Under the pieces are notes generated by a model, which saw only the letters and a program-made list of their open reading frames with translations, was not told the DNA's origin and made no database searches. Of a DNA stretch of 64,000 nt, positions 24,327 to 40,317 are shown in pieces (the stretch's first letter is position 1; the number at the start of each line of letters is the position of its first letter). This DNA is from a virus, in the IMG/VR virus record IMGVR_UViG_3300027801_000019, positions 3,617 through 67,616 of that record; one strand, given 5' to 3'. The position numbers and the translations under genes are program-made.

Positions 24327-25763
24327 ATGGCGGGTTCAAAACCATCAATCCAAAGCGGTTACGATAAAATAGAGTCTTTATTAGAATTATATCCATTAGA
24401 TGTGCGGGGCAATAAAACTAAAATTGCCGCCGCATTAACTTTGGTTCACCCAGAAAGAAATCATAAAGGGTGGGAGGCACTTGTTTTCCGCTATATCAAA
24501 GCACAAAAAGAAACTTCAAACACCATACAATACGACAAATCCCCTTATTATTATAATGAAGAAGCAGATACATATATAACTTTTATTCGTGCTGCAGGTG
24601 AAAATATGGTTATTAATGGTGATATGCACCGAGCCATGAAGTCTGCATACTCTAATATGGCAAGCAAGGGTGCTACTATTAATGAAATAGCACGAGAGTT
24701 TAACTTTCCTCGTGCTTATTTTGATGAATACCGTAGAGTTCATTGTTGGACTCATGATATGTTACCATATACAGACGAAGAAGTTATGGGTGAGAACAAT
24801 GATGAGTTGGTTGCCGACCTAATTCTTCGCAATCGTCGTGAGATTCACAAACAATACGAGAAGAAAAAGTGGAAGGAGATAGAACAGGCCGCTGAGAAAT
24901 GGTTTAATTTTGAAGATACTTACAAAGGGATGATTGGTGACTTGCAAAAAGCACCTAAGAAAGTGCCTAAAGCAAAACTTGCCGATGCTAAAGAGCCGTT
25001 TTGTGTTGTTATGTCTCCCACTGATTTTCATTGGGGTAAGCATGGTTGGGTTGATGAAGTCGGTGAAACCTATAACTTTGAAGAGGCTCGTTCCCGTTTG
25101 CTTGAAAGAACAAATGAAATTATTTCATGGTTGCCAGCTCGCCCTGATAAAATAATACTTGCTACTGGTTCAGATTGGTTTCATGTTGATAATGACTTAG
25201 GAATGACTACTCGGGGAACGCCACAAGATATGTGCGGAAGCCCAGCACAAATATTGATTACAGGTTGCCAATTGGCTCGTGAGCATATTGATATACTAAG
25301 GCAAGTTGCACCTGTTGAAGTGGCATTTATGGCTGGAAACCATGACCGGCATAGTGCAATTGCTTTAATGTTATACTTATCGGCGGCATATGAAGATGTT
25401 GACGATGTTGAAGTTCAATTAAATCCAAAAACAAGACATTACACCCAATATGGGGCAACATTGATTGGGTTTAATCATGGTGATTCAGTTAAAAAGGAGA
25501 AACTTCCTACATTAATGTCAAAAGAGCAACGAGTTCTTTGGGGTAAAACTGAATCCCACATTTGGTTCACAGGACATTTGCACCACCAAGTATTATATGA
25601 GATGGATGGAGGATTAGTTATTCAACTCCCCTCTTTGGCTGGCCATGACCGTTACCACTACCGAGCAGGTTACACAACAGCAAAGGCTGGTCTTGCAGCA
25701 CACATAATTGATAAAGAACTTGGGTTAATTGGTAGTATATTTAGTCCGGTGAGGCATACATGA
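24327..25763 (+). CDS. Calcineurin-like metallophosphoesterase with N-terminal HTH-like region
   Basis: DFH, GSD, GNHD, HGD and GHLH motifs. Confidence 0.88.
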   Translation: MAGSKPSIQSGYDKIESLLELYPLDVRGNKTKIAAALTLVHPERNHKGWEALVFRYIKAQKETSNTIQYDKSPYYYNEEADTYITFIRAAGENMVINGDMHRAMKSAYSNMASKGATINEIAREFNFPRAYFDEYRRVHCWTHDMLPYTDEEVMGENNDELVADLILRNRREIHKQYEKKKWKEIEQAAEKWFNFEDTYKGMIGDLQKAPKKVPKAKLADAKEPFCVVMSPTDFHWGKHGWVDEVGETYNFEEARSRLLERTNEIISWLPARPDKIILATGSDWFHVDNDLGMTTRGTPQDMCGSPAQILITGCQLAREHIDILRQVAPVEVAFMAGNHDRHSAIALMLYLSAAYEDVDDVEVQLNPKTRHYTQYGATLIGFNHGDSVKKEKLPTLMSKEQRVLWGKTESHIWFTGHLHHQVLYEMDGGLVIQLPSLAGHDRYHYRAGYTTAKAGLAAHIIDKELGLIGSIFSPVRHT

Positions 25764-25927
25764 CAATAGGGGCTGGTATTGTTTGGTCTGTTGAAAGAAA
25801 GTGTCGGGAGTGCGGCTTTACAGCTGTATGCCGATATACTTCTCATAGAAAATGGTGTAAAAAATTAAGTAAAAGAGTATATTGTGGCACTATGAGGGTA
25901 GTGCGTTATCCGGAGGAAGAAGAATGA
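25760..25927 (+). CDS. 55-aa Cys-rich protein
   Basis: Hand-translated MTIGAGIVWSVERKCRECG..YCGTMRVVRYPEEEE; ATGA overlaps on both sides. Confidence 0.65.
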   Translation: MTIGAGIVWSVERKCRECGFTAVCRYTSHRKWCKKLSKRVYCGTMRVVRYPEEEE

Positions 25928-27396
25928 AAATAGGAGAAACTTTATCGTTAAAGAGAAGTAAGAAAGACCCCAAGTATTTTTATCAATGGCTTGGTTATTC
26001 ATGGGGTGAGCACATTGAAGATTGGATGAAACTTTACGGTGAAAGAGGAGATTCTATTGTTCATAGGGTTTGTATTATCGCACCACGAGACCACTCAAAA
26101 TCCACCACACTAAGGGTAGCAGTGCTTTGGTCTTGTCTATTTGAAAAGTGGCGCAACAAACCATTTACCACTTGGTTGTTTTCTGCAAGTAAAGACCTTG
26201 CTATGCGCCGATTAGAAGAAATTAGGGAGGATATGAAAAGGCATCCACAACTTCGTAGTTTAATTGACCCAAGAAGGGGTAATAAACACGCAATTCATTT
26301 TACAAACGGTTCTTGGATTAGAGCAACCGGTGTAGGGGCGGCTATTCGAGGTGAGCACCCAGCCCGTATTGTTTTTGACGATGTATTGGATGATATAGGC
26401 GACCAATCCCCAAATAACCTTAGACATTGGTTTAGGAAGAAAATCACCCCTATGTTATCCCCACAAACTTCAATTTTCGTAGTGGGAACACCTATGGCTA
26501 TGACTGACCTTTACCATACGGAGATGCTATCAAATGATGTTTGGAAAAGCACCATTACATCTGCAATCCCTAATTGGGAGGAACATAAGGCGGATAATAC
26601 AGTTAAGCCTATTGCACTTTGGGAGGCGGAAAGACCTATTGCCTTCCTAATGGAACAACGAGCCGCTATCGGTGAATTGGCATTTACCCAAGAATATTTA
26701 TGTAAGGTTGTTGATGATGAAGCTCAAGCATTCCGTAGGGAACACACTCGAGCGCATATGGACACTAATGATGTAATCCACTGGGATAACAAAGAGGAAG
26801 GTAAATATATGATAGGCTTTGACCCATCTCAAGGATTGGGGCAAGATTATACCGTTATGGTTGTCTTGCGCCAAGATGCACAAGGGTTTGTTCACTTTGT
26901 TAATATGTGGCGTAGGAATGACTTCGCACCGGATAAACAAGCCGAGATGTTAGGCGAGTGGTCTAAAAAATATAAAAGCCCTATCGCTGCAGAAGATGTT
27001 GGATTTCAAAGACTCTATGAATCCCTATTAGTGCAAAAGGGAATAACGGTTGATTATCGCCAAAGCAAGGTTTCAAATCGTGCATTAAAGCAGGCATTGA
27101 TGAATCGTCTTCGAGTTTGGTTCGAGCAAAAGAAAGTAATATTCCCCTATGGCGACGATGCAACTCGTAGGGTTGTAAATGTCATATTAGAAGAATTAGA
27201 CCACCATGTATGGAAGGAAGGGCTTATTACTGATGTGGGCAAGCATAATGATACGGTTATGGCATTTGCTCACGCAATAGACCAAATGACACATATTGAT
27301 TCTGGGAGATTGCCTATGGCTACAAGAAAAGTCTCAGGAACTTCATGGGGCGGCAATTCATCGGGTTCGGGAAGATTTGTTATTTTCGGCGATTAA
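25924..27396 (+). CDS. terL: Terminase large subunit
   Basis: Walker A APRDHSKST, Walker B IVFDD, VVGTP, nuclease IGFDP and HNDTVMA; start moved to MKIGETL. Confidence 0.93.
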   Translation: MKIGETLSLKRSKKDPKYFYQWLGYSWGEHIEDWMKLYGERGDSIVHRVCIIAPRDHSKSTTLRVAVLWSCLFEKWRNKPFTTWLFSASKDLAMRRLEEIREDMKRHPQLRSLIDPRRGNKHAIHFTNGSWIRATGVGAAIRGEHPARIVFDDVLDDIGDQSPNNLRHWFRKKITPMLSPQTSIFVVGTPMAMTDLYHTEMLSNDVWKSTITSAIPNWEEHKADNTVKPIALWEAERPIAFLMEQRAAIGELAFTQEYLCKVVDDEAQAFRREHTRAHMDTNDVIHWDNKEEGKYMIGFDPSQGLGQDYTVMVVLRQDAQGFVHFVNMWRRNDFAPDKQAEMLGEWSKKYKSPIAAEDVGFQRLYESLLVQKGITVDYRQSKVSNRALKQALMNRLRVWFEQKKVIFPYGDDATRRVVNVILEELDHHVWKEGLITDVGKHNDTVMAFAHAIDQMTHIDSGRLPMATRKVSGTSWGGNSSGSGRFVIFGD

Positions 27397-27741
27397 TATC
27401 TCAATATCCAAAGAGTCACACTCCGGACATTGAAACTCGTAATAAAGCGAGGAACTCTCTAATTCAAATACAGCCCCCGTTATTACCCACCTCTCTCCAT
27501 TATAATTGCATATTGAGCATTTCAACATGGCTAATGATAGACCATGAGCTTATTTAGAATATGTTACTTTTTGAAAAAATTAAAAAAAATTGAGCGAGGT
27601 GGTGGGCGTTCGAGATGGGCGTTATATTGGAGTTTTTGGTGCATCCTTTATAGGTGGGCATCACCACCATTCGCTATGGGCGAACCAAATTGGACACATA
27701 CTATGTGTGATGCGATTCGGATTTGTTCTATGGGTGATACC

Positions 27742-28272
27742 ATGATTGAAATGATATTGGTAATTATCGCACTTTTGAAAAGTGTCATAGTTACAAAAAC
27801 AATAGGAATAGTAGGTATAGCGGCAATTGTTGCTATGAATACGGTAAAAGGGAAAGAACCAATTAGAACGGACAAAGCATGGTATAAAATGCGTGTTTTG
27901 GACTATCTAAACGGTATAATGAACATCATGGATAATATCCATGCTAACGGGTGGACAAAGTATCAAACTATGACCATTGGCGTTCAATATGCAAAGGTTG
28001 AATTGGTATTGGTTAGGGCTATGTTGAAAGCCTATTTGGCTATGGCAAAGGTTCAAAATTGGACTTTAGCGGTTGATGTGTGCCCTAATACGGCATCATC
28101 ACCGGTGGCCAAACTAAACGCTATGATAGCAACATTGATTGATATGTCAATGACCGATGATGAAAAGAATGCTATGCTAATTAGTCAATTAGAAAAGCAA
28201 ATGGCAAAGGATGCAAAAGCATTGAAAGCATTGTTGGCAAAGGGCAAAGGTGGTGCGGGCAAAAAGGAATGA
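27742..28272 (+). CDS. Helical protein, 'KMRxxDY' paralog 1, with N-terminal hydrophobic segment
   Basis: TTTATA at 27647, GGTGA RBS before ATG 27742; start uncertain (27676 or 27835 possible). Confidence 0.65.
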   Translation: MIEMILVIIALLKSVIVTKTIGIVGIAAIVAMNTVKGKEPIRTDKAWYKMRVLDYLNGIMNIMDNIHANGWTKYQTMTIGVQYAKVELVLVRAMLKAYLAMAKVQNWTLAVDVCPNTASSPVAKLNAMIATLIDMSMTDDEKNAMLISQLEKQMAKDAKALKALLAKGKGGAGKKE

Positions 28273-28281
28273 TAGGTGACT

Positions 28282-28380
28282 ATCATACGGTGCAAATCCG
28301 TTAGAATGTGGTTAGGGTCGCACACCACCGCCAAAGTGCGACCACCTACGGGAAAGGGTAGGGCAAACGGAATGGTTTGC
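28282..28380 (+). ncRNA. Candidate structured RNA type A, copy 1
   Basis: ACGG-TGCAAAT-CCGT, GGTCGCAC/GTGCGACC, CCTAC/GTAGG and GCAAAC/GTTTGC hairpins. Confidence 0.45.
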
Positions 28381-28393
28381 ACACCCCCCGAAT

Positions 28394-28828
28394 ATGGATA
28401 ACCAAACCCAAACCAAACCCAAACCGACCACCACCATGAAAGCACTTTTCATGTTTGATGCACACTTTAGCATCAATAATGAAATGTTGGCAACCTATGA
28501 TATTGGCAACATACCATCACTAACCTTTGGATATACCAATGGTGATGATATAGAACCGGCGCAAATACACCGTATGGTTGCGTCTATTGGCCACCGATTA
28601 GCAAAGACGCAACAACCTACCACCGATGAAAACGGGGATGAATGCGACCAATGTATGACCCATCACATTGACGGGGAATTATGCAATCAATCATCATGCG
28701 ACCATGATTATGATATTTTAGAATCCATTGATGGATGGGTTTCATGTCAATGGTGTGGATTTGAAAGGGGATTGGATGCCGATGATTTTCATGTTGAATA
28801 TGACCCAACCGACAAAGACGAATATTGA
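28394..28828 (+). CDS. Acidic protein with Cys/His clusters
   Basis: CDQC, CDHDY, CQWCG; start may be 28436. Confidence 0.6.
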   Translation: MDNQTQTKPKPTTTMKALFMFDAHFSINNEMLATYDIGNIPSLTFGYTNGDDIEPAQIHRMVASIGHRLAKTQQPTTDENGDECDQCMTHHIDGELCNQSSCDHDYDILESIDGWVSCQWCGFERGLDADDFHVEYDPTDKDEY

Positions 28829-29118
28829 AAGGATTGATTGAAATGATACTACCTAACAAAACAAATGAAAGGCCGACCAAAGGGGGTGATATGATGGCTA
28901 TAACACAAATAAACATGGCGTGTTCACAATGTATTGACAAAGCGTTTAATTTAGGAAAAACCACAATGGTAAAAGATTTCTTGGATATTAACAATTGTAA
29001 TTTCATTGTTGGGCGACCAACCCACATGATAATAGATTATCCAACAATCTATCTATGTGACGAATGTTTAGTGGAATATAAAAGAACAATGGCTTTTTTC
29101 AAAGCGTATGTTGTTTGA
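28825..29118 (+). CDS. Zn-finger-like small protein
   Basis: CSQC..CDEC; likely start about 28891 after GGTGA. Confidence 0.6.
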   Translation: MKGLIEMILPNKTNERPTKGGDMMAITQINMACSQCIDKAFNLGKTTMVKDFLDINNCNFIVGRPTHMIIDYPTIYLCDECLVEYKRTMAFFKAYVV

Positions 29119-29140
29119 ATAAACACTACTAATTCAATAA

Positions 29141-29237
29141 TTCAAATATAGACATCAATGCGTTGATGTTAGGGTGTTACGCCACCCTTTCGCCCCTATC
29201 GGTTGTGCGCAATCGGTGGGGGCTACCCTTTTTTTTT
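29141..29237 (+). terminator. Three-hairpin 3' element with poly-T (RNA type B, copy 1)
   Basis: Hairpins at 29152-29169, 29171-29188 and 29192-29223, then T9. Confidence 0.65.
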
Positions 29238-29704
29238 GCTTTTTGCTTTTCTTTTTTTTGATGTAGTAAAACAATCATTACTATATCGGATGGGGTAAAG
29301 GATAATCCCTCGAAAAATATAACGAAAAACTGTGCAGTAAATCGTGCAGTATTTTCATTTCAACTTATGTTGGGATTGGTTCTGCCTTACGAAAAAAACA
29401 TTTGGAGAATGCTGCAGTCTCACAATAACCTGCAGTCTTATCAGTAACACCGCCCTGCTCTCTCTTCTTTGGCATAGGGTAAGGCTTTCCCTTATTATTA
29501 AAAAAAGTCGGATTTTGTCACCCAGAAGTTCCAGGTATATAAAGGCTGGCCTCCACCATCCTCGCTTGGTAGTGCCGATTTGGGTCGCCGAAAAGTCCAG
29601 GTATATATACCCTTTCTCCGGTTGTTCAGAAAAGTATCACGAACATACTATATACTATGGGCGTATATTTATATTTAGGGGCAAAGACCCCACCGGTGAT
29701 AAAT

Positions 29705-30043
29705 ATGTCCGATGAAAAAGTAGCCAAAAAAACGATGAATGAAACCCTACGAATGCGTATTCGGGATGTAAATAATTTAGTTACAAACCTAATGCAATTT
29801 GTGGACACGCTAATGACCAAAAACGAATGGGTCGCCGTATTAGGCCTATTAGTAGCAAACAAAGCCCTATATGATGCCGTAGCACACCGATTTGGTGCAA
29901 AAGTGGATATAGCGCAAAAGATTGACGAATTAATTGAATCCGTCACATTGCTAACCATGTCAAAAGCCGCTATCAAAGCAAAGGCAAAGGCCGAATTGAA
30001 CGAACAAATCAAAGCACTAAAGGATGCACTAAAGGAACTATGA
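29705..30043 (+). CDS. Helical protein, paralog 2
   Basis: LRMRIRDV motif; TATA at about 29668, GGTGA RBS. Confidence 0.75.
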   Translation: MSDEKVAKKTMNETLRMRIRDVNNLVTNLMQFVDTLMTKNEWVAVLGLLVANKALYDAVAHRFGAKVDIAQKIDELIESVTLLTMSKAAIKAKAKAELNEQIKALKDALKEL

Positions 30044-30052
30044 TTTAGGATA

Positions 30053-30162
30053 ATCATTCGGTGCAAATCCGGCAACGACCCGATGGGGTGGCGGGCGAAT
30101 AATGTCCACCCCAACCGTAGGCCGGTGGCCGTCATAGGGAAATGGCGGTCATCGGTTTTTTT
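30053..30162 (+). ncRNA. Candidate structured RNA type A, copy 2, ending in terminator-like hairpin
   Basis: ATCATTCGGTGCAAATCCG (18/19 to copy 1), GGGGTGG/CCACCCC stem, long GU-containing hairpin and T-run. Confidence 0.45.
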
Positions 30163-30352
30163 ATTTGTCATATTTAACATAGGCTTTTTTAAGCCAACGA
30201 TACCTGACCTCCCTCGAAAAAAATAAACTGCTTATCGTGCAGTATCTCGGCATACCTTAAAACCAGTTTTGTTAAAAAAGTAACTTCATGGCACACCCCC
30301 TAAGTTTGTATTCGCATTCACATTCATTCTAATCACCTAACTTTATTCAATA

Positions 30353-30589
30353 TTATGAGATTGCTACACCGTTTTCATCAAAGTCATAGGCGCACAAGTC
30401 GTCACATACCCAACAATACAATTCGTATGCGTTAAGTCGTTCTAATTCGGACAAGTCTATTACCATATAATCCATGTTTCCATCCCACGAGAACGCCGTC
30501 ATCATTGACACCGTATCTTTTCCGCAAGTTTTACATAACCATATAAACTTATATTCTATTTCTTTCAATCCCAAGTTTTTATTTTCCAT
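30353..30589 (-). CDS. Zn-finger-like small protein (cassette gene)
   Basis: CKTC..CWVC; own TATA element. Confidence 0.7.
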   Translation of the reverse strand: MENKNLGLKEIEYKFIWLCKTCGKDTVSMMTAFSWDGNMDYMVIDLSELERLNAYELYCWVCDDLCAYDFDENGVAIS

Positions 30590-30862
30590 TTTTAATCATT
30601 CCTACCCCGTCGGGGCTACATACCCATACACGCCACACCCTATAATGGTAGCGATTCGGCAAGTTTTACGAGATAGCAACCTATTTATCTTAGAGCCGCC
30701 CCCGAGTTAGGGGTGGGGATTAGTCTCGAAAAAAACAAAATGTCTTCTGTGCAGTTTATAAGTTCGGTGACTTACGGGGAGTTTTGAATAAAAAAGGAGG
30801 TGGTATGGTTGTGAATACATTTATAGTATTATTTAAGTTCATACAATCACCTAAGTTTTTAT

Positions 30863-31180
30863 TTAACGGGGTAAAGGATAATCATAAAGAGTTGCACCAA
30901 CAATTGCGTCATATGCGTAGCACAAATTGTTATTGACAATCCAAAACTCAGACACCAAATCAATCATAATAAAATGGTCGTCGGGTTGGTTTGGTATATC
31001 AAACTCAGGCACTATCCAATAACCCATCGGTATGCACATACCATCAAAGTTTGTTCCTAAGTTCATCATCATGCAAAACTCATCATCATATCCACGAATT
31101 GCCATAGCAATTTGACCGTAGGGCATGATAATTAAGCCGCTTTTTTCATCGTTGTTTTCGTATATTTCTAAGTTTTTCAT
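30863..31180 (-). CDS. Acidic hypothetical protein (cassette gene)
   Basis: 105 aa; upstream region nearly duplicates that of 30353-30589. Confidence 0.7.
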   Translation of the reverse strand: MKNLEIYENNDEKSGLIIMPYGQIAMAIRGYDDEFCMMMNLGTNFDGMCIPMGYWIVPEFDIPNQPDDHFIMIDLVSEFWIVNNNLCYAYDAIVGATLYDYPLPR

Positions 31181-31476
31181 TTTCGGTTTTCCCCCCTTTT
31201 GGGTTAGTTACCCATACACGCCGTAGCATATAATGGTTCGGATTGGGTGAGTTTTACGAGCTTTGGTGGTATTAGTTAAGCCGCCCCCCAAGATAAGGGG
31301 ATGGGATAAGATTACTCGAAAACAAAACTCGCTAACTCGTGCAGTATATTTTTCCTTCAAAAAACGCATTCGCCTGATGTGTTGGTTGTCATGTTGTTGT
31401 CAAAAAGTGACCTTATGGTGGGGGAATCCCACCGGATTGATATTGGAAGAACCTTTTCATATTACCACCTATTTAT

Positions 31477-32085
31477 TCAAAGACTTGGTGGTGCGTTATA
31501 TTCCCAATCGCATGACCTACAAAACACTAACAATCCGTCTTCGGAGTCGTCATAGTTAAAGTAATCTTCGCCAGCCGCACCATTGATAACTTCTTCACAC
31601 ATATTACAAAGAATGATTATGCTTTTTTTCCTTCCATCCTTTTCATTTTTATAGGTGTGTCCAACAAGTTTGTGTGATTTACAACGGTGGTCGTAGTAGC
31701 CCGCTTCCCCAGTCACATATGAATGTTCTAATGTGTATTCGGAAATAACTTCATCACGATGAACCATTTCATTGCACACAAAGCACTTCACAGTGATACC
31801 ATGTCGCTTTTCAAAGTCGGCCTTCATTAGTGCTTTGCCCTTTTGTTGTCGGTCAAATACCTTGTATGCCCGTAGTAGTATTTGCATACGGACAATTTCT
31901 TGTTCGTAGTATTGCTTTAATACCACCATTGATACACCAATAGGTATTTTGCTTTCCAGCGCACTTATTAATTCGTCGTTTGTGGTTGGGTATGTTAGAT
32001 TATTGCTAACACACACCAACTTCAGAAACGCCATTTCCTTTTCATTCAATTTTATATTCTTCAATTGTTTATTTTCGTTATTCAT
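31477..32085 (-). CDS. Zn-finger-like protein (cassette gene)
   Basis: CFVC, CKSH, CNMC, CRSC; AGGAGGT RBS. Confidence 0.75.
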   Translation of the reverse strand: MNNENKQLKNIKLNEKEMAFLKLVCVSNNLTYPTTNDELISALESKIPIGVSMVVLKQYYEQEIVRMQILLRAYKVFDRQQKGKALMKADFEKRHGITVKCFVCNEMVHRDEVISEYTLEHSYVTGEAGYYDHRCKSHKLVGHTYKNEKDGRKKSIIILCNMCEEVINGAAGEDYFNYDDSEDGLLVFCRSCDWEYNAPPSL

Positions 32086-32424
32086 GTTTTTTACCTCCTT
32101 TTTAGTCGCATCGGGCTTTGTTATTGTCGCCCGCTACAACCACTGCTGGGGGTATGTGGGTATAAAGGTTTATATTGGGCGTCTTAGTGGAGCTTTGGTG
32201 GTATTATATGAGGTGCGCCTCCGGCCTCAAGTTTTTAGGATAAGGTCTCGAAAAAAAACTATGACAAGTCGTGCAGTATATTTCACTGTCAGAAACTCGA
32301 AAGACGGCGAATCCTTAGCATATGTAAAAAAGCGATAAAAAAGTTAAATCCAATAGGTGAACTTAATGTGGGGAATATCCCACCGATTCAAACATTATCT
32401 TAATAGTCATGGTATCACTTCAGT

Positions 32425-32952
32425 TCAATATGACCTATCGTGGGTTGGCGGGAAGTGTGTGTAGTCATTTGTAGTGACTAAATCCATACCATACCTAAAG
32501 TGTAATTCCGCCTCAACTGCATCTAATACACCATTACCAAACATACCCTTTAGAATGCCCGTTAAAACTTCAGGTATTCCGCCGCCGATGTGATGCGCTA
32601 ATCCAACTTCGCAGATTAACTTTATTTCACAATCGGTTGTGTGGCGTGGGTCAAAGTTAACTTGTAGGTTGTGTGCCACTAATTGTAGCGTTACAACTTC
32701 CCTGTTTGACATAATCCACACTTCAGGTATTTGCGGGGTTAAACATTCCCGACATTTGTAGGCTTGCGGAGTAGGTTGTTCCGATACATCTTCAGATTCC
32801 CCGTCACCACATAACTTACCGCAGTAGTCGCATTCACGACACCCGCAACCATGTATTTCACCAAATTGCCTTATGTGCCATTCGTAATGTTCCTTTGATA
32901 GAACATGACCGCAACCACATACAATTTCATTCGTTTTTTTATCTTCTTTCAT
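32425..32952 (-). CDS. Zn-finger-like protein (cassette gene)
   Basis: CGCGH, CGCRECDYC, CREC; AGGAGG RBS. Confidence 0.75.
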   Translation of the reverse strand: MKEDKKTNEIVCGCGHVLSKEHYEWHIRQFGEIHGCGCRECDYCGKLCGDGESEDVSEQPTPQAYKCRECLTPQIPEVWIMSNREVVTLQLVAHNLQVNFDPRHTTDCEIKLICEVGLAHHIGGGIPEVLTGILKGMFGNGVLDAVEAELHFRYGMDLVTTNDYTHFPPTHDRSY

Positions 32953-33254
32953 TATTTTTGCCTCCTGTTTTTTTGGATGGCCGCCGTTGCGACCATGTTA
33001 GGCTGTGGGGGTAGTAGCATATATAATGTTCTATTAGGCAAGTATAGCGAGCTAAACGCACTTTATTCATCTTGCCGCCTCGTCGAGTTAGGCAAGTTTA
33101 AAGCCTACGAAAAAACTTCACAAATAATCGTGCAGTTTATCCGCTTGTGTGACGACTGTTAAGTTTCATGCAATGCTACGCCTTACAAAACATGAAGGCA
33201 GTTAGGGATGCCAGCCCGAGCTGATGGTGGGTGATACAAGTTACCATCAATTGA

Positions 33255-33569
33255 TTAAGCACCGTAGGATGCGCAGTCGCAACCACATAATTCAGTCATA
33301 TACAACCATTCAGGTGTAGCAATTTCAGAAGGGTCATGCCCACAAAGACAATGTGAGAATGAGCCATCTTTGTTGTAGGAAGTGACGGTGTAATTACCAG
33401 CGGCCATTTTTGCATTGAGCTTTTTAATATCAGCCAAGACTTTTACAACACGAACACATGGTTTGCAGTAAGCAAGCATTGTGAAGGTTGGGTGGCCTAC
33501 ATAAGGTATATCCACCATTTCATCGGAAGGAAACCATTCGGAGCAGCCGCAGCACATATCAGGATTCAA
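33255..33569 (-). CDS. Cys-rich small protein
   Basis: CCGC..CKPC..CLCGH. Confidence 0.6.
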   Translation of the reverse strand: MNPDMCCGCSEWFPSDEMVDIPYVGHPTFTMLAYCKPCVRVVKVLADIKKLNAKMAAGNYTVTSYNKDGSFSHCLCGHDPSEIATPEWLYMTELCGCDCASYGA

Positions 33570-34282
33570 GATAAATCAACCCCATAATTAACAGGTTTTG
33601 GTGAGCAAAGGTCGCCGGTGGCAGAAAGACAAGGCCCTTCAGAATAATAACCACAGCGAAGACAAATTGGTTTAGCAAGATGTATTTTGGTATAACAGTC
33701 TAAACAATATTTTGAGTCGTTATTACCGAGCATCATTGTCTTTTCCGAGAACCATTCATCGCAGTGAAAGCATTCATCCTTTGGTGAGCCCCATACATCG
33801 GCCATAAGAATCTTTGGTTCACACCAGATTCGGTGTGCGCCGCACAGGTGGATTTCATATTTTAAGACAGTTCTATGACTATCAGTTTGGGCAAAGAATG
33901 CGAAGTCCATAAGAATGCAGCCGCAGTCAAGTGTTTGTTGTTTGCCTAACTTTTGAAGATTGTATTTGGCGACAGTTGCAGCGTGGTCATCCCAGCATTC
34001 GGTGTCATCATGAGGGATGCAATCGTCATCATAATAGTCGGCGTAGCAAGGTGAGCAAAGGAGTTCATTGCCACCGTCGCACCCAGCCACATTGATGTAT
34101 TGAGTAATTGGTCTATCGCAAGTATCGCAATTGCCGATTATGTTCCCCAAGTTGGTGGGGATTCGAGAATCAGAGGTCAATCGCAAGTCGGGCATCGGGG
34201 GTGTGTCGGGTCGTTCCGCCATAACAAGACATCGGGGGCATTGCATATATACCCTGCGTATGGCCGAAGTGGGGTGCATCAC
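33566..34282 (-). CDS. Multi-Zn-finger-like protein
   Basis: Six or more CxxC pairs; start uncertain. Confidence 0.6.
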   Translation of the reverse strand: MMHPTSAIRRVYMQCPRCLVMAERPDTPPMPDLRLTSDSRIPTNLGNIIGNCDTCDRPITQYINVAGCDGGNELLCSPCYADYYDDDCIPHDDTECWDDHAATVAKYNLQKLGKQQTLDCGCILMDFAFFAQTDSHRTVLKYEIHLCGAHRIWCEPKILMADVWGSPKDECFHCDEWFSEKTMMLGNNDSKYCLDCYTKIHLAKPICLRCGYYSEGPCLSATGDLCSPKPVNYGVDLS

Positions 34283-34628
34283 GATTGAGTTTTAGCGAGT
34301 TAAAGGGATATACGAGTGTGTATCACATTCCACCTCATCGGATGGTTGGGGGTGGGGGGAATAAATGTCTCGAAAACTATTTTTTAAATATCGCACAGTT
34401 TAATGCAGTCTCTATCTTGGCCGCCGCCTCAAGTTTTTTATTTGAGTTGAGCTCGAAAAAAACTTAAGTAAAATCGTGCAGTTAAGTAAAACGAAAATAC
34501 GCCATTTAGCTCGTGCCTCGATGATGATGCACCGCACTTGCCTATACCGGCATCTATATATAGTAGTGATGCGTAAGACTATCATGGGCAAAGTGAAGAC
34601 CAGCCCTACAAAAAGGAGGCAAAAAATA

Positions 34629-35129
34629 ATGAAACAAGATAAGAAAAATCCGAAAGCGGAGAAAGAAGCAAAGGAAGCACCACCAGCTGAAGCTGTTGCT
34701 GTAACTTACTTGCCACCCACCGAGAACCAGTGGAAGGTAATGAAGATGCGCAACCGAGATTACCTGGATGCTAACAAGAAGATGATTGACGAAGAACTGG
34801 TGCTACAAGCAGCAGCTCTTGCAGTTGATGAGAAAAACCGAGGGATGGTAACATTCTCCCCTTATCAGGCGAGCCTTATGGTAATCGCCCTCGAGGCGGC
34901 GTTGTTAGTCTTCACTTCAATGTGCTCAGAAGCAATTCGTGTAAAATCTGTCTTCATTAATTTGAAGGCGGATTTCGGACTGCAGATAGCTCGATTGAAC
35001 GGACTCATTGATGGCACAGTTAAGGCAATGACACCTGCTGAGAAAATTGCGAACAAGGCCGCTCTCGAAGAGAAGATGGCTGAAAGCGCAAAGCTCCAAG
35101 CGGAAATATTAGCCTTGAGTCAAGTCTGA
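34629..35129 (+). CDS. Helical protein, paralog 3
   Basis: MKMRNRDY motif; TATA at about 34555, AGGAGG RBS at 34614. Confidence 0.75.
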   Translation: MKQDKKNPKAEKEAKEAPPAEAVAVTYLPPTENQWKVMKMRNRDYLDANKKMIDEELVLQAAALAVDEKNRGMVTFSPYQASLMVIALEAALLVFTSMCSEAIRVKSVFINLKADFGLQIARLNGLIDGTVKAMTPAEKIANKAALEEKMAESAKLQAEILALSQV

Positions 35130-35147
35130 TTCTGGAAGCTCTTTCCA

Positions 35148-35249
35148 TTCAAGTAAACTTGTGAATGCGTTCACAAGCCGAGCACAAAAGTAAGTCTCGT
35201 TTCGCTCCCCTTGAGGCTGAGGCCTTGAGGGGAGCTCCATTTTTTTTTT
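35148..35249 (+). terminator. Three-hairpin 3' element with poly-T (RNA type B, copy 2)
   Basis: CTTGTGAA-TGCG-TTCACAAG, CGAG..CTCG, 14-bp hairpin 35204-35235, T-run. Confidence 0.65.
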
Positions 35250-35719
35250 GACTTATTTTTAATCAAGGCAGAAATGCTATAAATCTCGAGACTCTCGAAA
35301 AATACTCGCTATTGCTTGGCAGAAGATTAAAATCTTGAGATATAACGAAAACACCGAAAATCAAATCGTGCTCAAAAAAAGCGGGTCGAGTGTGTTTCAT
35401 AGTAGGAGTTTGTTTAACATCTCGCTATAAGGTATCGCCCCTCGCCTTCTCATATATTAAAATAGTAAGACAGTAAATCCATGCAGAAAATCTCCAGCCA
35501 ATCAATACAAGACTACCATCTTATCCCCGAAGTTACACAAGGCAAAGAGCCGAAACTCCGCACCCGAGCGGTTAACTCATATATGATGCACGAACCCCAT
35601 AGGTTTATATAGTTTGACGATAATCTCATATTAGGTGGAACGACAGAAAACTTACAGTAATCGGTAGTATCTTGTCTCCCCAAAAAATAACTGAAGATGA
35701 AAAAACGGAAGGTGAAAAA

Positions 35720-36193
35720 ATGTATGATAACAAGGATTACTTCTCCCTCGAGGAGATAGAAAGAAATGGCAGAAGCTGTCGTTATGAAGTTTGTGTGGCC
35801 GATGGAAGAATCGGTCTCCAAGTAGTAACATTCAGGACAGATTCATGCTATCAAGTTGAAATTGGTTTAGGTGTTAAGTCACCTCTATATACCGGAGGCA
35901 CATGGGTCACAAAGACCAAGATTGCTTATTGGGATGGAGCTGGTGCGGATAGGCAACCTGAGGAAAAGGAACAAGTGCAAGACCATCTAAATCAGGTATC
36001 TTGGCACATGGGCAGCGTCTGGAATGTTCGAGATGTTGAATCCTCAGTCTTTGACTTTATCTTATCTGATTACGGGTCAGTTTCTATTGGTATAGCTCAA
36101 CTCAAAGCGGTTAGGCTTCAGATGATGATGGCAAAGCAACTTCAATTACAGCAAGCGTTCTTACAGGACTTTATCGCAGGTGATGCAATATGA
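35720..36193 (+). CDS. Hypothetical protein, first gene of early operon
   Basis: TTTATATA at about 35604; GGTGA RBS before ATG 35720. Confidence 0.7.
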   Translation: MYDNKDYFSLEEIERNGRSCRYEVCVADGRIGLQVVTFRTDSCYQVEIGLGVKSPLYTGGTWVTKTKIAYWDGAGADRQPEEKEQVQDHLNQVSWHMGSVWNVRDVESSVFDFILSDYGSVSIGIAQLKAVRLQMMMAKQLQLQQAFLQDFIAGDAI

Positions 36194-39100
36194 GTAAGGC
36201 AATTAATCATTGTTGTATCAAGCTTAACAACATCACTTGTGTATATGAAAATCCTAAGGGAATGCGTGTATGCTCAGATTGCTATATTCCAGGCAAATTA
36301 TATTTGTCAGTCACTTACACCACTACACTGAGGTTTGATGTATGAGTTTAGATAATGGATTCTTTACCTTCCCTCTATGCAAAGAATGCAAGGGAGTTGT
36401 TGGTTATGTGAACAAGCAAGGCAATTGTTCTCCATGCGCTGCAGACCTACTGAGGTGGAATGAATGAGTGGGATAGATATTATTCTTAAGGATAGACGGA
36501 TTGCAGAAGACAGAATCAAGCGAGCCTTGAAGGTCTTAAGCTCATGGCCTACGGATGAAATGCAAGAAGAAGAAGGCTTCTGTTGGAGGAACTTTTTCTC
36601 AGGCATGGGATGTGCCGCCCGAGACATCTTGGAGGGAAATGAATGACTTCCGATACATCAGCTGGCTTCATGTATTGCAGCTTCCCTAAGTGCGACAATA
36701 GAACTGACATGGGTCATAATCTTGTCTGTAATGAATGTGCTCTAAGATTGTTAGGGATAACAATTAGAGGTGATGAATCATGAGTGAATTAGTTTATTGT
36801 AACTCATGTTGGAAACACATTGGCAAGCCCATCTTCGCATGGGGTCGCAGGTTTGAAGCTTGTGCTTGTGAAACACCAAGCCCTGATGAGCGAGACACAG
36901 ATATGAAATATTCTGAAGTACTTGCAGATGTCTGCGAGAAAATCAAACAAACTCATGTGAAAGCAGTTAAGAATGAGAAATGGACTGATGAAGCATTAAA
37001 AGAAATGCTTAAGATGCTTGACATTGAAGGAGATGATGAAGATGAAGAATTACTATAAAATAGAAGATGAAGTGGCCTACCGGCTTAAGGAGAAAACTGA
37101 TTGCGCCCACTGTCGAGAAAAGTTTTTCGAGCCAGATGGAGAATATGTAACATCTCAAGGAGTATTGTGTGAGTTACATTGGCTCAGATTGCTTGTCAAA
37201 AATGCTCAAGACAATACCCGCATACAAGATGAGTTAGGTGCAAAAGTTAAGAGGGATATTAATCTCGAGTGTTCTCTTTGTGTTGGAGAGTCTAATGACA
37301 AGGGAGAATACATTACCTCTCGAGGTATAATGTGCAAGTATCACTGGAACAAGGAGTTTACAGGAAGGTGTGTTGCTAATGAGTGAGCAACACTCATTTA
37401 TTGGGATGCCAGCATCTCGAACTGCTCGTAACGATATACCTTATCTGTTTAAGAATCAAGGAAGATTAGTTATAACAACTGAATCATATCGCTTCTCTTG
37501 TTGTCCTATTTTGAAGCCCATTGTCTGGGTTGCCGGAAGAAACTGTGATATTCGAGGCGAACTTCATATTTGGAAGTGCAGCGGTTGTGAGGAGCTTTTC
37601 TCTATTCAACATTCGCCTGCTTGCACACAAGGGCTTTGCAGATGCTTGCTTGACAAAACCAAGTATAAAGTGGTAGAGTCAAAATACATGAGGTGATTAT
37701 GATGTGTGAAAATGAAGATAATCCTTGGAGAAACATTAGATTTATTAAGGAAGATTTAGCGTTGCTAACTGAACATAAAAATCCAAGAATAGCTTATACC
37801 GCAGGAGTTTTATTACACCAGCGCAACTTAGAAGAAGAAGCGAAGGGAAAGCATGATGAATGGTTTAAAGATTTAGAGGATGAGTATGTGGAGAAGGTGG
37901 GCTGATATGAAGACAAGAAAAGAACCTATGTATGAGCGTGATTGCATCACCTCAAGAACTTGCCTTCGTAATACCAGTGCAAGACCAGGTCTTTATCCTG
38001 AGAGCAGACAGCCAAAGGAAAGACTTAAGTTATATAGGGTTGACTCACATTGTAAATCTGCTCATGCACCTGAAGAAATTGTGCAAGACTGCTGCATCTT
38101 ATATGGCGTAGCCGAAGATGGAGCTCGCTTTATATGGAGTCATGTCTTCCAATACTGGAGAGAAGCACAAGTAAAAAAATATGAAGAAGAAAATGGAGAT
38201 GAGAAAAATGAGTGAAAAAACTGAAATACGAAAACTGGAGCAAAATCCTGCGCAGCTGCGCAGATGGACTGACCTTGTATGGCATGACTATGAGATGGGT
38301 AAATATTCTCAAGAAAAGGCTTTGAGACCAGCATTTATGGGGCAAACAAGACAAGCTTGGATAGATGAGAAAATGGAAGCATTCCTTGAAACTCACCCTA
38401 ACTACCTCGATGGTGACGAAGATGGAGATTGGCCAGGTTACAAGAGAAGTGGCCTACGAGACCAAATGGAAAATGAATCTTCTTTTTATACATTCGCCTT
38501 AATTGATGGAAGTTATAGACCAGGAGCTTGGTATGTAATGATGACTCAAGAAAGCCGACAATATCTTGGGCCAGAAGAAGGAGGAACTTGGGGCGGTTGT
38601 TCTCGATTTGTTCAATGGACTTCCTTCTATACCCGAGAAGAAGCAGTAGAGTTTATTGAGTTTTACAATGCCAACAAGAAAGCTGGCACAACCAACTCGG
38701 ATTCCCTTGAGTTACTTGGTGGTGACGATACAGTCTCATCAACCTACCCTGAAGGTTATATCCCTACTGGCTTCTCTTTTGATAAATCCTTAGAGGTCTA
38801 TTTAGTAATCCTACCTTATGTGCCTGAGCCGGAGCCTTATTACTATGAATGAAGAAGATATAATCAGGTCACTTGCTCATAGTATGCAGATGACTGTCCG
38901 ATTCTGGCTCAAGAGTGGTATGTCAGACGAGACCAGAAAAGTATGCGAAGAATATGAAAATATCTTCAGGGGAATCTATGTGAAACCCTTCCGGCAGAAA
39001 CTTTGGGTTGTCTCGAGATATTCAGCGCAAGTTTTGTTATGGGGCGATAAGATGTTTGGAGGAAATTAAGATGGATTACAAAGCAAAGAAAAGAGATGAA

Positions 39101-40317
39101 GATGGATTTAAAAAACCACTTAACAATAATGGTTGGGCTCATATTCACGAGTATGAGATATACATAACCTCAAGCAATCCTGTGAAGTTTACTTGGCAGT
39201 GTTGCTGGTGTGGGAAAAAAAGAAATGAAGATAAGAACGATAAAAGAAAGTGGTGAATGAAAATAAGGAGTGAAAATAAGATGAGTGAAAATATAATAGA
39301 TGAAAATATACGATGCAGAAGATGTCGCAGTTCAGCTGTGGCATTCAGGAAGAATGTTTTTGGGTATAACCTTGAGGAATGCCTAAGGTGCAAGTTCACC
39401 TACATAAGCAATAGAATGAAAATTAGGAAACTTGTTAAAATTGAAGTTCCTGAAGAAAAACTTTGTTTTGTTGGCTGTGTTTGTGCATCTTGTTATCCGG
39501 AGGACTACCGATGAAGTGCGAGAATTGTGGCTCAAGTGCCGATACTGAGTTTCATCATGCCGGTCAAGTAAGTTGGTGTTCCCCCTTAACTGGGTGCAAC
39601 ATTGATTCTGTTGTTGAGGATATACTACAAGCTGTAATAGTGAAGCACAAAGAACTGATAGCAGGCAAGAACAGGAACATATGTGCTGGAGAAACTAATG
39701 AATCTTATGATGAAGCAAGTGACTCAATTATACCGATACACACTTCTTATGCAGAAGTAAGAAAGTGGGTTGAAGAACAGATGAAATTAATAGTGCAAGA
39801 AATGGCTGAAATGGAGTATGGTTTCTGATGCCTAATCGAGAAACTTCAAGTCATGGGTGGGTTCATGCGAGCGAGCCAACTTATGTTCGTAAAAAACTCT
39901 TCGTGTCATTCATTTGTATTAATCAGGTTGCTGGAGTAACTCCAGCAAAAATACCATGCAACACTCTAATTACTCATTGTTCAGTATCTGAGGATGATAT
40001 TGAGTCTCGATGCCCTGAATGCAATTTCCCTCACCTTCCTACCGAGTATCAAATCTGGGGGGTTTCTGATGAGTGAAGTAGTAGTAGTATGTCATCGTTG
40101 CCGAGCAGAAGATAGGCCAGACCATACAAGAACTTATAAGACATTTGCTAAGAATGCTTACTGCGTATGTGGCACTGCCCTTCATGTTACAACTCTTGAT
40201 GAAAATGAATTATTTACTTGCATACATTGTAAATCTCTAATTTATGGTCTGGATAATGACGGCTCAACTTCTTGGGTGGACTGGAATGATTGCGGCTGTA
40301 AGAATAAGGTGGTCTGA
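36190..40317 (+). other. Chain of about 16 small overlapping ORFs, mostly CxxC Zn-finger-like
   Basis: Includes 36464-36646, 36780-37058, 37018-37386, 37370-37696, 37693-37905, 37907-38215, 38818-39069, 39257-39514, 39511-39828, 39828-40076, 40069-40317; ATGA overlaps and GGTGA/GGAG RBS. Confidence 0.75.
38208..38852 (+). CDS. Acidic phage-type hypothetical protein
   Basis: RQYLGPEEGGTW resembles a GPEEGGW motif recurrent in small phage early proteins. Confidence 0.6.
   Translation: MSEKTEIRKLEQNPAQLRRWTDLVWHDYEMGKYSQEKALRPAFMGQTRQAWIDEKMEAFLETHPNYLDGDEDGDWPGYKRSGLRDQMENESSFYTFALIDGSYRPGAWYVMMTQESRQYLGPEEGGTWGGCSRFVQWTSFYTREEAVEFIEFYNANKKAGTTNSDSLELLGGDDTVSSTYPEGYIPTGFSFDKSLEVYLVILPYVPEPEPYYYE

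What the first reader, a model, noticed from the sequence alone, without database searches (positions are those of the whole stretch)
29309..35374. Polar bipartite DNA motif CGAAAA..TCGTGCAGT with two-helical-turn spacing punctuating every cassette
Seen: about 10 copies with variable AT-rich middles but fixed start-to-start spacing of 21 nt (29389, 30214, 30726, 31316, 32248, 33107, 34370, 34453, 35345) or 20 nt (29310, 29322), and a looser copy near 40513-40544. All are on the + strand regardless of neighbouring gene direction. One (30214) lies between convergent genes, so it is not simply a promoter element. The motifs carry the CTC/CAG trinucleotides missing from the cassettes. Inference: same-face binding sites for a protein acting with genome polarity, such as staged-ejection stop signals (cf. 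T5 injection stop signal), packaging or nicking signals, or cassette recombination sites. I know of no described equivalent in archaeal viruses.
Basis: partly seen in the sequence, partly recalled or inferred. Interest (0 to 1): 0.88.

Follow-up and report, generated by a model that had tools for sequence, protein, structure and literature searches.

The report
One-way junction motif between virus gene cassettes
A 31-base DNA signal that always points the same way sits at every gene-cassette boundary in the variable region of a marine, probably archaeal, tailed virus and its relatives, and cassette swaps between relatives break at its edges, much like the promoter-terminator junction elements known from T4-type phages.

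Summary
The window has 10 copies of tCTCGAAAAAA-N9-AAATCGTGCAGTA at 29311-34454, all on the + strand. A matrix built only from other contigs gives 10 + hits and 0 - hits in the 67.6-kb genome, against 0.2 per strand in shuffles.

The window is a closed tailed-virus genome with archaeal-type replication genes. It resembles the viruses of marine group II archaea (magroviruses).

The motif is conserved in relatives. All 19 metagenome contigs with two or more copies (77 copies) carry them on one strand. Cellular genomes show only chance-level single hits.

The layout is conserved too. A tandem pair precedes a + gene, single copies lie 3' of each leftward ORFan cassette, and a second tandem pair precedes a paralogous + gene. 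Cassettes differ between relatives. One-sided homology ends inside the motif or within 10 nt of it in 22 of 25 pairs.

Best reading (0.45): a lineage-specific, rightward promoter-type junction element, an archaeal-virus counterpart of T4 PeSLs, that also serves as a recombination point. A protein-bound boundary site and a leftward terminator are not excluded. No transcript ends were available. Ejection, packaging and nicking readings have no support.

A similar element has already been reported for the haloarchaeal virus HGTV-1, so this is a new variant of a known kind.

The parts
29309..29340 (+). motif copy 1, the first of an overlapping pair; 20-nt spacing; second box CTGTGCAGT
29321..29352 (+). 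motif copy 2; 20-nt spacing; second box TCGTGCAGT
   Evidence: matrix score 8.8
29388..29419 (+). motif copy 3; second box TGCTGCAGT; 67 nt after copy 2; left tandem group ahead of + gene A
   Evidence: score 30.6
29530..29680 (+). array of four TATA-like boxes (29536, 29602, 29649, 29668) between the left tandem group and gene A
29705..30043 (+). gene A, 112 aa, with an N-terminal RMRIRD motif; conserved position behind the first tandem pair in relatives
30213..30244 (+). single motif copy between convergent genes
   Evidence: score 24.2
30353..30589 (-). leftward ORFan cassette, 78 aa; no Pfam or PHROG family
30725..30756 (+). single motif copy; second box CTGTGCAGT
   Evidence: score 8.6
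30863..31180 (-). leftward ORFan cassette, 105 aa
31315..31346 (+). single motif copy
   Evidence: score 28.3
31477..32085 (-). leftward ORFan cassette, 202 aa, with a strong Shine-Dalgarno sequence
32247..32278 (+). single motif copy
   Evidence: score 30.6
32425..32952 (-). leftward ORFan cassette, 175 aa
33106..33137 (+). single motif copy; begins ACGAAAA
   Evidence: score 27.9
33255..34282 (-). two leftward ORFs (104 and 238 aa). The 238-aa ORF is the only cassette with a homologue in a relative: 44.5% over 128 aa to L007 9330-9971
34369..34400 (+). first copy of the right tandem pair; second box TCGCACAGT
   Evidence: score 15.9
34452..34483 (+). second copy of the right tandem pair, 83 nt after the first
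   Evidence: score 32.6
34555..34561 (+). canonical TATA box of gene B, 101 nt after the C of the second tandem copy and about 70 nt before the ATG; same arrangement in L090, L112, L128 and L115
34629..35129 (+). gene B, 166 aa, a distant paralogue of gene A (RMRNRD motif); model is a helical bundle; conserved behind the last tandem pair in relatives
35294..35375 (+). degenerate pair of copies (C at 35296 and 35346) ahead of + gene 35672-36193
   Evidence: below the matrix threshold

Best explanation
The motif is a lineage-specific, directional cis-regulatory junction element of a marine, probably archaeal (magrovirus-like), tailed virus. It works like the PeSL promoter/stem-loop cassettes of T4-type phages.

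Proposed anatomy. The roughly 32 conserved bases have the size and geometry of an archaeal core promoter pointing rightward. If transcription starts at the A after CAGT, the CGAAAAAA tract lies at about -29 to -22, the TATA position. The invariant AAATCGTGCAGT covers -12 to -1, with a T/A initiator. The motif lacks the virus's own canonical TTTATATA box, so it would need a virus- or lineage-specific factor.

Proposed roles. Many copies follow a GC hairpin and/or a T-run, so each junction would read 'stop, then start' on the + strand. Tandem copies feed two paralogous + genes that bracket the array. Single copies face the 3' ends of the leftward ORFan cassettes, where they would give convergent or antisense transcription, or insulation. 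As 30-bp islands of identity in one orientation, the copies are also the crossover points at which cassettes are exchanged between related viruses.

What is shown and what is inferred. Shown: existence, polarity, conservation, layout, and breakpoints at the motif. Inferred: promoter activity, start site, trans-acting factor and antisense role.
For: Reality and polarity. The genome has 10 + hits and 0 - hits against 0.2 per strand in shuffles. In 19 of 19 multi-copy metagenome contigs (77 copies) every copy is on one strand. The 94%-complete relative G001 has 5 copies on one strand, 0 on the other and 0 control matches, all within 3 kb of 61 kb.

Selection. The motif survives as 44-bp islands of 86-89% identity inside otherwise unalignable DNA. 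TerL is 82-84% identical and flanking gene B only 34-35%. The consensus from 75 copies shows nothing conserved outside about 33 bp.

Specific to the virus clade. Scanning 596 Gb of cellular genomes gave 19 single hits in 19 records, against about 17 expected by my arithmetic, and no clusters.

Rightward logic.
- Tandem pairs (18 pairs, spaced 55-83 nt, 11 of them 66-67) lie ahead of conserved + genes, where no leftward gene stands upstream of them on the - strand.
- Among single copies, 23 of 35 have a run of five or more T upstream on the + strand, against 2 of 35 with an A-run.
- GC hairpins lie upstream of several copies.
- More distant TerL relatives carry other one-way repeats in the same region. 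Those of L056 and L062 (5 +/0 - and 7 +/0 -) include a TATA box and mostly precede + genes. Several relatives share the GTGCAGT core.

Recombination. Among 73 copies, 13 inter-contig pairs share only the upstream side, and 11 of them lose identity at +31 to +39 (the motif ends at +28). Twelve pairs share only the downstream side: 7 lose identity at -7 to -1 and 4 at +14 to +18. Cassette proteins differ between relatives.

Archaeal setting. The clamp loader matches archaeal RFC small subunits at E 7e-26, against 7e-12 for T4 gp44 and 5e-4 for the bacterial gamma subunit. PolB's best full-length hits are haloarchaeal tailed viruses. TTTATATA-type boxes precede genes.
Against: No transcript start was observed. 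The motif has no canonical TATA box, although the genome's ordinary promoters do.

Most intervals between copies hold leftward genes: 22 of 47 are minus-dominant, 13 plus-dominant and 12 ambiguous. A rightward promoter there would therefore make antisense RNA, which is unusual and unproven.

Both conserved + genes have their own canonical TATA box 88-101 nt downstream of the last copy, or several such boxes for gene A. The motif is therefore not their only promoter.

Some tandem pairs have a T-run of up to 10 between the two copies, which would stop RNA started at the first copy.

On the - strand the best-conserved part is a run of 6-8 T, an archaeal terminator signal. Folding energies of the upstream hairpins do not favour one strand: 38 are more stable on +, 28 on -, of 70.

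The breakpoint counts come from ungapped comparisons of non-independent pairs. A conserved motif also extends alignments by itself, and at least one 'upstream-only' pair is an 18-bp indel.
Confidence: 0.45

Rival explanations
1. A boundary or operator site without promoter activity. A virus-encoded DNA-binding protein sits on the two TCG-led half-sites, 21 bp apart on one face of the helix. It insulates or represses neighbouring transcription units in either direction. The uniform orientation is a by-product of how cassettes spread: recombination between direct repeats is tolerated, while inverted copies would invert the genome.
For: The motif is bipartite with a variable middle and fixed spacing. 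Copies flank units of both orientations. Extra lone CGAAAA half-sites lie near canonical TATA boxes and just after the last tandem copy. Fifteen of the 27 + strand CGAAAA in the window lie within 29311-35355. Each virus lineage has its own repeat, as expected if site and protein co-evolve.
Against: No DNA-binding protein was identified. Pfam found only weak HTH_23 and MarR hits (E about 0.005) among 62 ORFs. The conserved neighbour, gene B, models as a plain helical bundle with no informative fold match. The distance to the canonical TATA box varies from 88 to 101 nt.
Confidence: 0.25
2. A leftward terminator. Read on the - strand, ACTGCACGATTT-N9-TTTTTTCGAG is a back-up, possibly factor-assisted, oligo-T terminator placed 3' of every leftward cassette.
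For: The run of 6-8 T on the - strand is among the best-conserved parts. Every leftward cassette has a copy 82-260 nt beyond its stop codon. In L035, GGTTACAAAA copies (68 + against 10 -) lie among leftward ORFs, and each reads as a short T-run on the - strand.
Against: Leftward genes already have their own hairpin plus T-run between the stop codon and the motif: 57 of 72 copies have a run of five or more A on + within +30 to +130, and the conserved block has a hairpin followed by TTTT(T) on the - strand. An oligo-T terminator does not explain the invariant TCGTGCAGT and CTCG. The doubled copies stand where no leftward gene lies upstream on the - strand.
Confidence: 0.12
3. A dedicated site-specific recombination site, integron-like: a gene with one oriented site at its 3' end, inserted by a recombinase.
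For: On the - strand each cassette is a gene followed by one site, all in one orientation. Breakpoints lie at the motif. Cassettes are ORFans that differ between relatives.
Against: None of the families reported for the window ORFs scanned against Pfam is an integrase or a recombinase. The motif has no inverted symmetry (sequence). Crossovers fall at both edges and inside the spacer rather than at one fixed point. The cassettes carry their own promoters and Shine-Dalgarno sequences.
Confidence: 0.08
4. A signal for a physical process on the DNA: a staged-ejection stop, a terminase recognition site, or a strand-specific nick site.
For: Strict strand polarity, and a position 2-8 kb downstream of the large terminase gene.
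Against: There are ten copies spread between genes over 5 kb in the middle of a contig whose ends overlap, by 86 bp with 3 mismatches read by eye. There are none elsewhere in 67.6 kb. No data on nicks or genome ends were available.
Confidence: 0.05

Closest known systems
PeSLs (promoter-early stem-loops) of T4-type phages (PMC2839356, passages read; PMC4122927, abstract and introduction read)
   Same: Both are short conserved composite motifs repeated in intergenic DNA of a hyperplastic region. Both flank ORFan cassettes, sit next to G/C-rich stem-loops and an A/T-rich stretch, and lie at the breakpoints of insertions, deletions and replacements between close relatives.
   Different: PeSLs carry the host sigma-70 consensus and end in the Shine-Dalgarno sequence and start codon of a co-oriented gene. 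Here the host is probably archaeal and the motif has no canonical TATA box. Most cassettes are antisense to the motif. Promoter and terminator activity are untested.
Conserved motif before ORFs in the left part of the haloarchaeal myovirus HGTV-1 (passage in PMC3950731 citing Sencilo et al. 2013; the primary paper is not held)
   Same: It is an archaeal tailed virus with a repeated intergenic motif that has been likened to PeSLs, with proposed roles in transcription and genome shuffling.
   Different: That motif is reported to contain a TATA-like box and an inverted repeat and to precede the ORFs. The present motif has neither within its conserved 33 bp and mostly follows the ORFs. I have not seen the HGTV-1 sequence.
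Integron attC cassette arrays (recalled knowledge)
   Same: Each gene has one oriented site at its 3' end. The array of unrelated cassettes runs in a single orientation, and exchange happens at the sites.
   Different: No integrase was found, the site has no hairpin-forming inverted repeats, the cassettes have their own promoters, and the crossover position is not fixed.
Archaeal core promoter: BRE, TATA and initiator (recalled knowledge)
   Same: It has about the same length (about 32 bp) and is polar. An A/T tract lies about 26 bp upstream of a pyrimidine-purine step, and CGAAA resembles the euryarchaeal BRE consensus as I recall it.
   Different: The A-tract is not a TTTATATA-type box like the genome's own promoters. 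The proximal 12 bp are GC-containing and invariant, which is atypical.

Membership tests
PeSL-type composite junction element | Repeated conserved motif in intergenic DNA of a hyperplastic region, flanking ORFans | tested here: met
   There are 10 copies between ORFs at 29311-34454. The cassettes have no Pfam or PHROG family and differ between relatives.
PeSL-type composite junction element | Contains the host's consensus early promoter | tested here: not met
   The conserved 33 bp contain no TTTATATA-type box like the genome's own promoters. A non-canonical promoter is possible but unproven.
PeSL-type composite junction element | Adjacent stem-loop acting as a terminator or attenuator | tested here: inconclusive
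   GC hairpins and/or runs of five or more T lie upstream of many copies (23 of 35 single copies) but not all. Folding does not favour one strand.
PeSL-type composite junction element | A co-oriented gene starts directly at the 3' end of the motif | tested here: not met
   Of 47 intervals between copies, 22 are minus-dominant, 13 plus-dominant and 12 ambiguous. The + genes start 117-365 nt downstream, with canonical TATA boxes in between.
PeSL-type composite junction element | Recombination breakpoints between relatives lie in the motif | tested here: met
   In 22 of 25 one-sided pairs, homology breaks inside the motif or within 10 nt of it. The pairs are not independent and the comparison was ungapped.
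Integron cassette array | Integron integrase (tyrosine recombinase) encoded nearby | tested here: not met
   None of the Pfam families reported for the window ORFs scanned is an integrase or a recombinase.
Integron cassette array | attC with paired inverted core sites that fold into a hairpin | tested here: not met
   The consensus tCTCGAAAAAA-N9-AAATCGTGCAGTA has no inverted symmetry.
Archaeal core promoter | Transcription starts about 25 nt downstream of the A/T box | not testable with these tools
   Only contigs from one RNA run were available, and they cannot show transcript starts.
Archaeal intrinsic terminator (- strand) | Oligo-T run at the 3' end of the transcription unit | tested here: inconclusive
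   A run of 6-8 T is present on the - strand in nearly all copies. However, a separate hairpin plus T-run lies closer to the stop codons, and no 3' ends are known.
Magrovirus-like archaeal tailed virus (host setting) | Halovirus-like morphogenetic genes plus an archaeal-type replisome (PolB, RFC clamp loader and others) | tested here: inconclusive
   TerL, a tape measure protein, PolB and an RFC-like protein were found, with best matches to archaeal RFC and to haloarchaeal virus PolB. MCM, primase and clamp were not identified. A TerL scan found no relative in cellular genomes. The family definition is taken from passages of PMC5434244.

The most novel reading that the evidence does not exclude
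Each lineage of this marine archaeal virus family has evolved its own one-way junction motif: CTCGAAAAAA-N9-AAATCGTGCAGTA here, GGTTACAAAAAC in L035, and GACGCTTGCGAA followed by a TATA box in L056 and L062. A lineage-specific viral factor reads the motif, fires a rightward promoter against the 3' end of every leftward ORFan cassette as a global antisense switch, and at the same time marks the crossover points for cassette exchange. That would be an archaeal-virus counterpart of integrons and PeSLs in which regulation and gene shuffling share one 31-bp site.
Probability: 0.2. Interest if true: 0.75.

Novelty: new variant of a known kind. Interest (0 to 1): 0.55.

Why it matters
These viruses are abundant in the ocean and uncultured, and nothing is known about how they regulate genes or acquire new ones.

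A conserved one-way element at every cassette junction gives a concrete handle on both questions. It marks where accessory genes are swapped. It also predicts a virus-specific class of transcription signal that differs from the host-type TATA promoters in the same genome.

The repeats also explain why assemblies of these viruses often break just after the terminase gene. If the antisense arrangement is real, it would be a new way for an archaeal virus to switch off a whole block of accessory genes at once.

Tried and rejected
RNA evidence. One metatranscriptome run (X1, contigs only) held 5% of the sampled words. When laid, its contigs matched 28102-28252, 34609-34842 and 35032-35182 at 100% identity, plus low-complexity matches at 29230. 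No motif copy was covered. Contigs cannot show starts or ends and the depth was 2-3, so I draw nothing from it.

Known RNA families. Rfam gave no hit at gathering scores over the window, and only a chance-level NsiR4 hit (E 0.81) in 27500-36500.

A small RNA downstream of the motif. The 138-nt stretch after the motif that is conserved in 10 contigs does not fold better than shuffles on either strand, with z between -1.0 and +0.4 in the 3 contigs folded. It contains the leftward gene's hairpin and T-run, so it is better read as a shared 3' module.

Strand of the upstream hairpins. Energy differences do not decide between strands.

A trans-acting factor.
- Genes A and B, which follow the tandem pairs, are distant paralogues (hhalign probability 83.5%, E 8e-6). 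BLASTP alone saw nothing.
- Neither has a Pfam, PHROG or ESM Atlas lead.
- The AlphaFold model of B (pLDDT 77) is a helical bundle whose best PDB match has E 0.36.
- I therefore found no evidence that they bind DNA.

A virus-encoded RNA polymerase. The 2222-aa ORF next to the tape measure gene has no Pfam family and none of the catalytic aspartate motifs I searched for. No sigma, TFB or TBP family appeared among 62 ORFs.

Histogram of homology-block ends. I rejected it as evidence, because a conserved motif extends alignments by itself. I replaced it with the one-sided pair test.

Host link. A TerL scan of cellular genomes found no relative. The motif scan of cellular genomes gave only chance-level single hits.

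Sencilo et al. 2013 is not held, and supplements were not consulted. Their figures may show the HGTV-1 motif and bear on how similar it is. Searches for print precedent: (magroviruses), with passages showing no mention of promoters or intergenic motifs, and (PeSL).

Full report
WHAT THE WINDOW IS. The window is bases 3617-67616 of a single 67,616-bp contig. The first 86 bases of the contig recur at its end with 3 mismatches, read by eye, so it is a closed or terminally redundant virus genome. It is a tailed virus.
- A tape measure protein (6080-9790, -) and other structural genes lie on the - strand.
- A large terminase (25882-27396, +), an exonuclease (24327-25763, +) and a family-B DNA polymerase (61161-63413, +) lie on the + strand.
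- The clamp loader (54639-55553) matches archaeal RFC small subunits best, at E 7e-26. Human and yeast RFC score 5e-20, T4 gp44 scores 7e-12 and the bacterial gamma subunit 5e-4.
- The best full-length PolB matches among cultured viruses are haloarchaeal tailed viruses, at about 23% identity.
- Several intergenic regions carry GTTTATATA-type boxes 20-70 nt before start codons.
- The 80 terminase relatives kept, of 111 that encode a relative, are uncultured virus contigs from IMG/VR. No cellular genome encodes a relative.

This gene set matches what passages of PMC5434244 describe for viruses of marine group II archaea. I treat an archaeal host as likely but not proven.

THE OBSERVATION. The motif is real.
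- Ten copies match CGAAAA-N13/14-(second box ending CAGT) on the + strand between 29311 and 34454. None matches on the - strand.
- CTCGAAAA occurs 8 times on + and 2 on -. TCGTGCAGT occurs 6 times on + and 0 on -.
- The spacing from TCGAAAA to TCGTGCAGT is 21 nt, or 20 nt in the two overlapping copies at 29310 and 29322.
- A weight matrix built only from 18 copies in three other contigs finds 8 sites on +, 0 on -, and 0-1 in each of 20 shuffles.
- A matrix from 60 distinct copies of other contigs finds 10 on + (9 within 29322-34454), 0 on -, and 0.2 per strand in 30 shuffles.
- The copies at 35296 and 35346 are degenerate, and the one near 40513 does not score.
- CTC and CTG are depleted on the + strand of the cassettes. 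CAG is not.

CONSERVATION AND POLARITY ELSEWHERE. Three IMG/VR relatives carry the motif in the same place and orientation relative to the terminase gene. Their TerL is 82-84% identical.
- L007 has 6 copies and L090 has 6 copies.
- G001, which is 94% complete, has 5 copies at up to 1 mismatch on one strand, 0 on the other and 0 control matches, all within 3 kb of 61 kb. A sixth copy appears with a looser pattern.

A metagenome scan returned 36 loci.
- Nineteen of them hold 2-6 copies (77 in all), and in all 19 every copy is on one strand.
- The other 17 have one copy. Five of them, with GC content 0.55-0.57, are obvious chance matches.
- Two of the 19 are the same contigs as L007 and L090.

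The same pattern in 596 Gb of cellular genomes gave 19 single matches in 19 bacterial records, about the 17 I expect by arithmetic, and never two together.

The consensus of 75 distinct copies is tCTCGAAAAAA-N9-AAATCGTGCAGTA. Nothing is conserved outside about 33 bp. Between relatives whose neighbouring DNA no longer aligns, the motif remains as a 44-bp island of 86-89% identity.

LAYOUT. The arrangement is the same in the window, L007, L090 and G001.
1. Terminase and a few small + genes come first.
2. A tandem pair of copies follows, then a stretch with three or four TATA-like boxes, then + gene A (112-134 aa, N-terminal RMRIRD motif).
3. Next come single copies, each lying 82-260 nt beyond the stop codon of a leftward cassette. 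Each cassette has its own hairpin plus T-run, TATA-like box and Shine-Dalgarno sequence.
4. A second tandem pair follows, then + gene B (166-174 aa) with a canonical TATA box 88-101 nt after the last copy, then the long + strand early and replication arm.

Further details:
- Genes A and B are distant paralogues (hhalign 83.5%, E 8e-6).
- Tandem spacing is 55-83 nt, and 66-67 nt in 11 of 18 pairs.
- Of 47 intervals between copies, 22 hold mainly a leftward ORF, 13 a rightward one (mostly gene A) and 12 are ambiguous.
- The cassette proteins have no Pfam or PHROG family. With one exception (44.5% over 128 aa), they have no counterpart in the relatives.

BREAKPOINTS. I compared 73 distinct copies with their flanks, pairwise between contigs.
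- Twenty-three pairs are alike on both sides.
- Thirteen are alike only upstream. Eleven of these lose identity at +31 to +39, where the motif ends at +28, and two at -36 and -18.
- Twelve are alike only downstream. They lose identity at -7 to -1 (7 pairs), +14 to +18 (4 pairs) or +54 (1 pair).

The same motif with its left flank is therefore joined to different right flanks, and the reverse, with the switch at or inside the motif.

Three caveats apply. The comparison is ungapped, the pairs are not independent events, and one upstream-only pair is an 18-bp indel. An earlier histogram of alignment ends is confounded by the conservation of the motif itself, and I do not use it. Because crossovers occur at both edges and in the spacer, this looks like homologous exchange within a short island of identity rather than an enzyme cutting at one base.

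WHAT IT MOST LIKELY DOES. A strictly one-way element of about 32 bp suggests a directional process. Read rightward, it has the proportions of an archaeal core promoter. With a start at the A after CAGT, the A-tract lies at the TATA position and the invariant AAATCGTGCAGT covers the region that melts. This geometry is my inference from recalled promoter architecture.

Four observations support a rightward reading.
- The doubled copies stand ahead of conserved + genes, where there is no leftward gene to serve.
- Twenty-three of 35 single copies have a run of five or more T upstream on the + strand, against 2 of 35 with an A-run.
- GC hairpins lie upstream of several copies.
- In more distant relatives the same region carries other one-way repeats. 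Those of L056 and L062 (5 +/0 - and 7 +/0 -) include a TATA box and mostly precede + genes. Several relatives share the GTGCAGT core.

Five observations count against it.
- The motif has no canonical TATA box.
- Both + genes have their own.
- Some tandem pairs have a long T-run between the two copies.
- Most cassettes would be transcribed antisense.
- No RNA ends are known.

I therefore give the promoter-type junction reading 0.45. I give 0.25 to a protein-bound boundary or operator site whose polarity merely reflects recombination history. A leftward terminator gets 0.12, a dedicated recombination site 0.08, and ejection, packaging or nicking signals 0.05.

COMPARISON WITH WHAT IS KNOWN. The closest described system is the PeSL of T4-type phages. 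These are composite promoter/stem-loop motifs in hyperplastic regions that flank ORFans and mediate their shuffling (PMC2839356 passages; PMC4122927 abstract and introduction). A PeSL-like motif has been reported in the haloarchaeal myovirus HGTV-1 (passage in PMC3950731; the primary paper is not held).

The present element meets the PeSL criteria of location and breakpoints. It fails the criteria of a host-consensus promoter and of a co-oriented gene at its 3' end. So it works like a PeSL in genome shuffling but is not shown to be one in transcription. It is not an integron: no integrase was found, the site has no inverted repeats, and the cassettes have their own promoters. The magrovirus papers I searched do not mention promoters or intergenic motifs.

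VERDICT. The finding is a new variant of a known kind. Interest is moderate, at 0.55. It would rise if the antisense promoter or the lineage-specific factor were shown.

Noticed in passing
window 28273-28393 and 30044-30168 (+): Two related elements share CGGTGCAAATCCG, each directly after a + gene. Each folds into three hairpins, with z-scores of -2.9 and -2.0. Neither has an Rfam match. The 11-mer recurs only in near-identical contigs (L001, L002, L124) and in two unrelated loci.
   Followed up: partly
window 29530-29680; L090 8030-8230; L056 11123-11448: Dense arrays of TATA-like boxes, often with a CGAAA-type word nearby, lie ahead of gene A. Distant relatives have arrays with a period of about 41 nt. 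These could be a promoter cluster or a replication origin.
   Followed up: no
L035 12972-18817; L056 11503-17049; L062 13896-19743: More distant terminase relatives (62-65% identity) carry different one-way repeats in the same region. GGTTACAAAA occurs 68 times on + and 10 on -, among leftward ORFs. GACGCTTGCGAA followed by a TATA box occurs 5 +/0 - and 7 +/0 -, mostly before + genes.
   Followed up: partly
genome ends (G000 1-86 and 67531-67616, outside and at the end of the window): The ends overlap by 86 bp with 3 mismatches, so the contig is closed or terminally redundant and carries strain variation.
   Followed up: partly
window 30805-30936 (+): A 43-aa ORF with a strong Shine-Dalgarno sequence starts 49 nt after motif copy 30727. 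A TTTATAA box abuts the motif. The ORF overlaps the 3' end of the leftward gene 30863-31180.
   Followed up: no
L004-L006, L011, L030, L044, L050; L119, L130, L134, L139, L143, L148: Many relatives' contigs, some 55-72 kb long, stop 0.2-3.6 kb after the terminase gene. Several metagenome contigs end at a motif copy or within about 90 nt of one. This suggests that assemblies break at this repeat-rich, strain-variable region.
   Followed up: no
window 30250-34360: CTC and CTG are depleted on the + strand of the leftward cassettes, which means GAG and CAG are depleted on their coding strand (3.9 and 2.9 per kb). Rightward genes at 34480-40000 have 21.4 and 14.5 per kb. The cassettes therefore have a distinct codon or word usage.
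   Followed up: partly
window 27358-27528 (-) and 27345-27557 (+): A 56-aa ORF on the - strand is 66-70% identical in three relatives and overlaps a 70-aa + ORF. Which of the two is the real gene is unclear.
   Followed up: no
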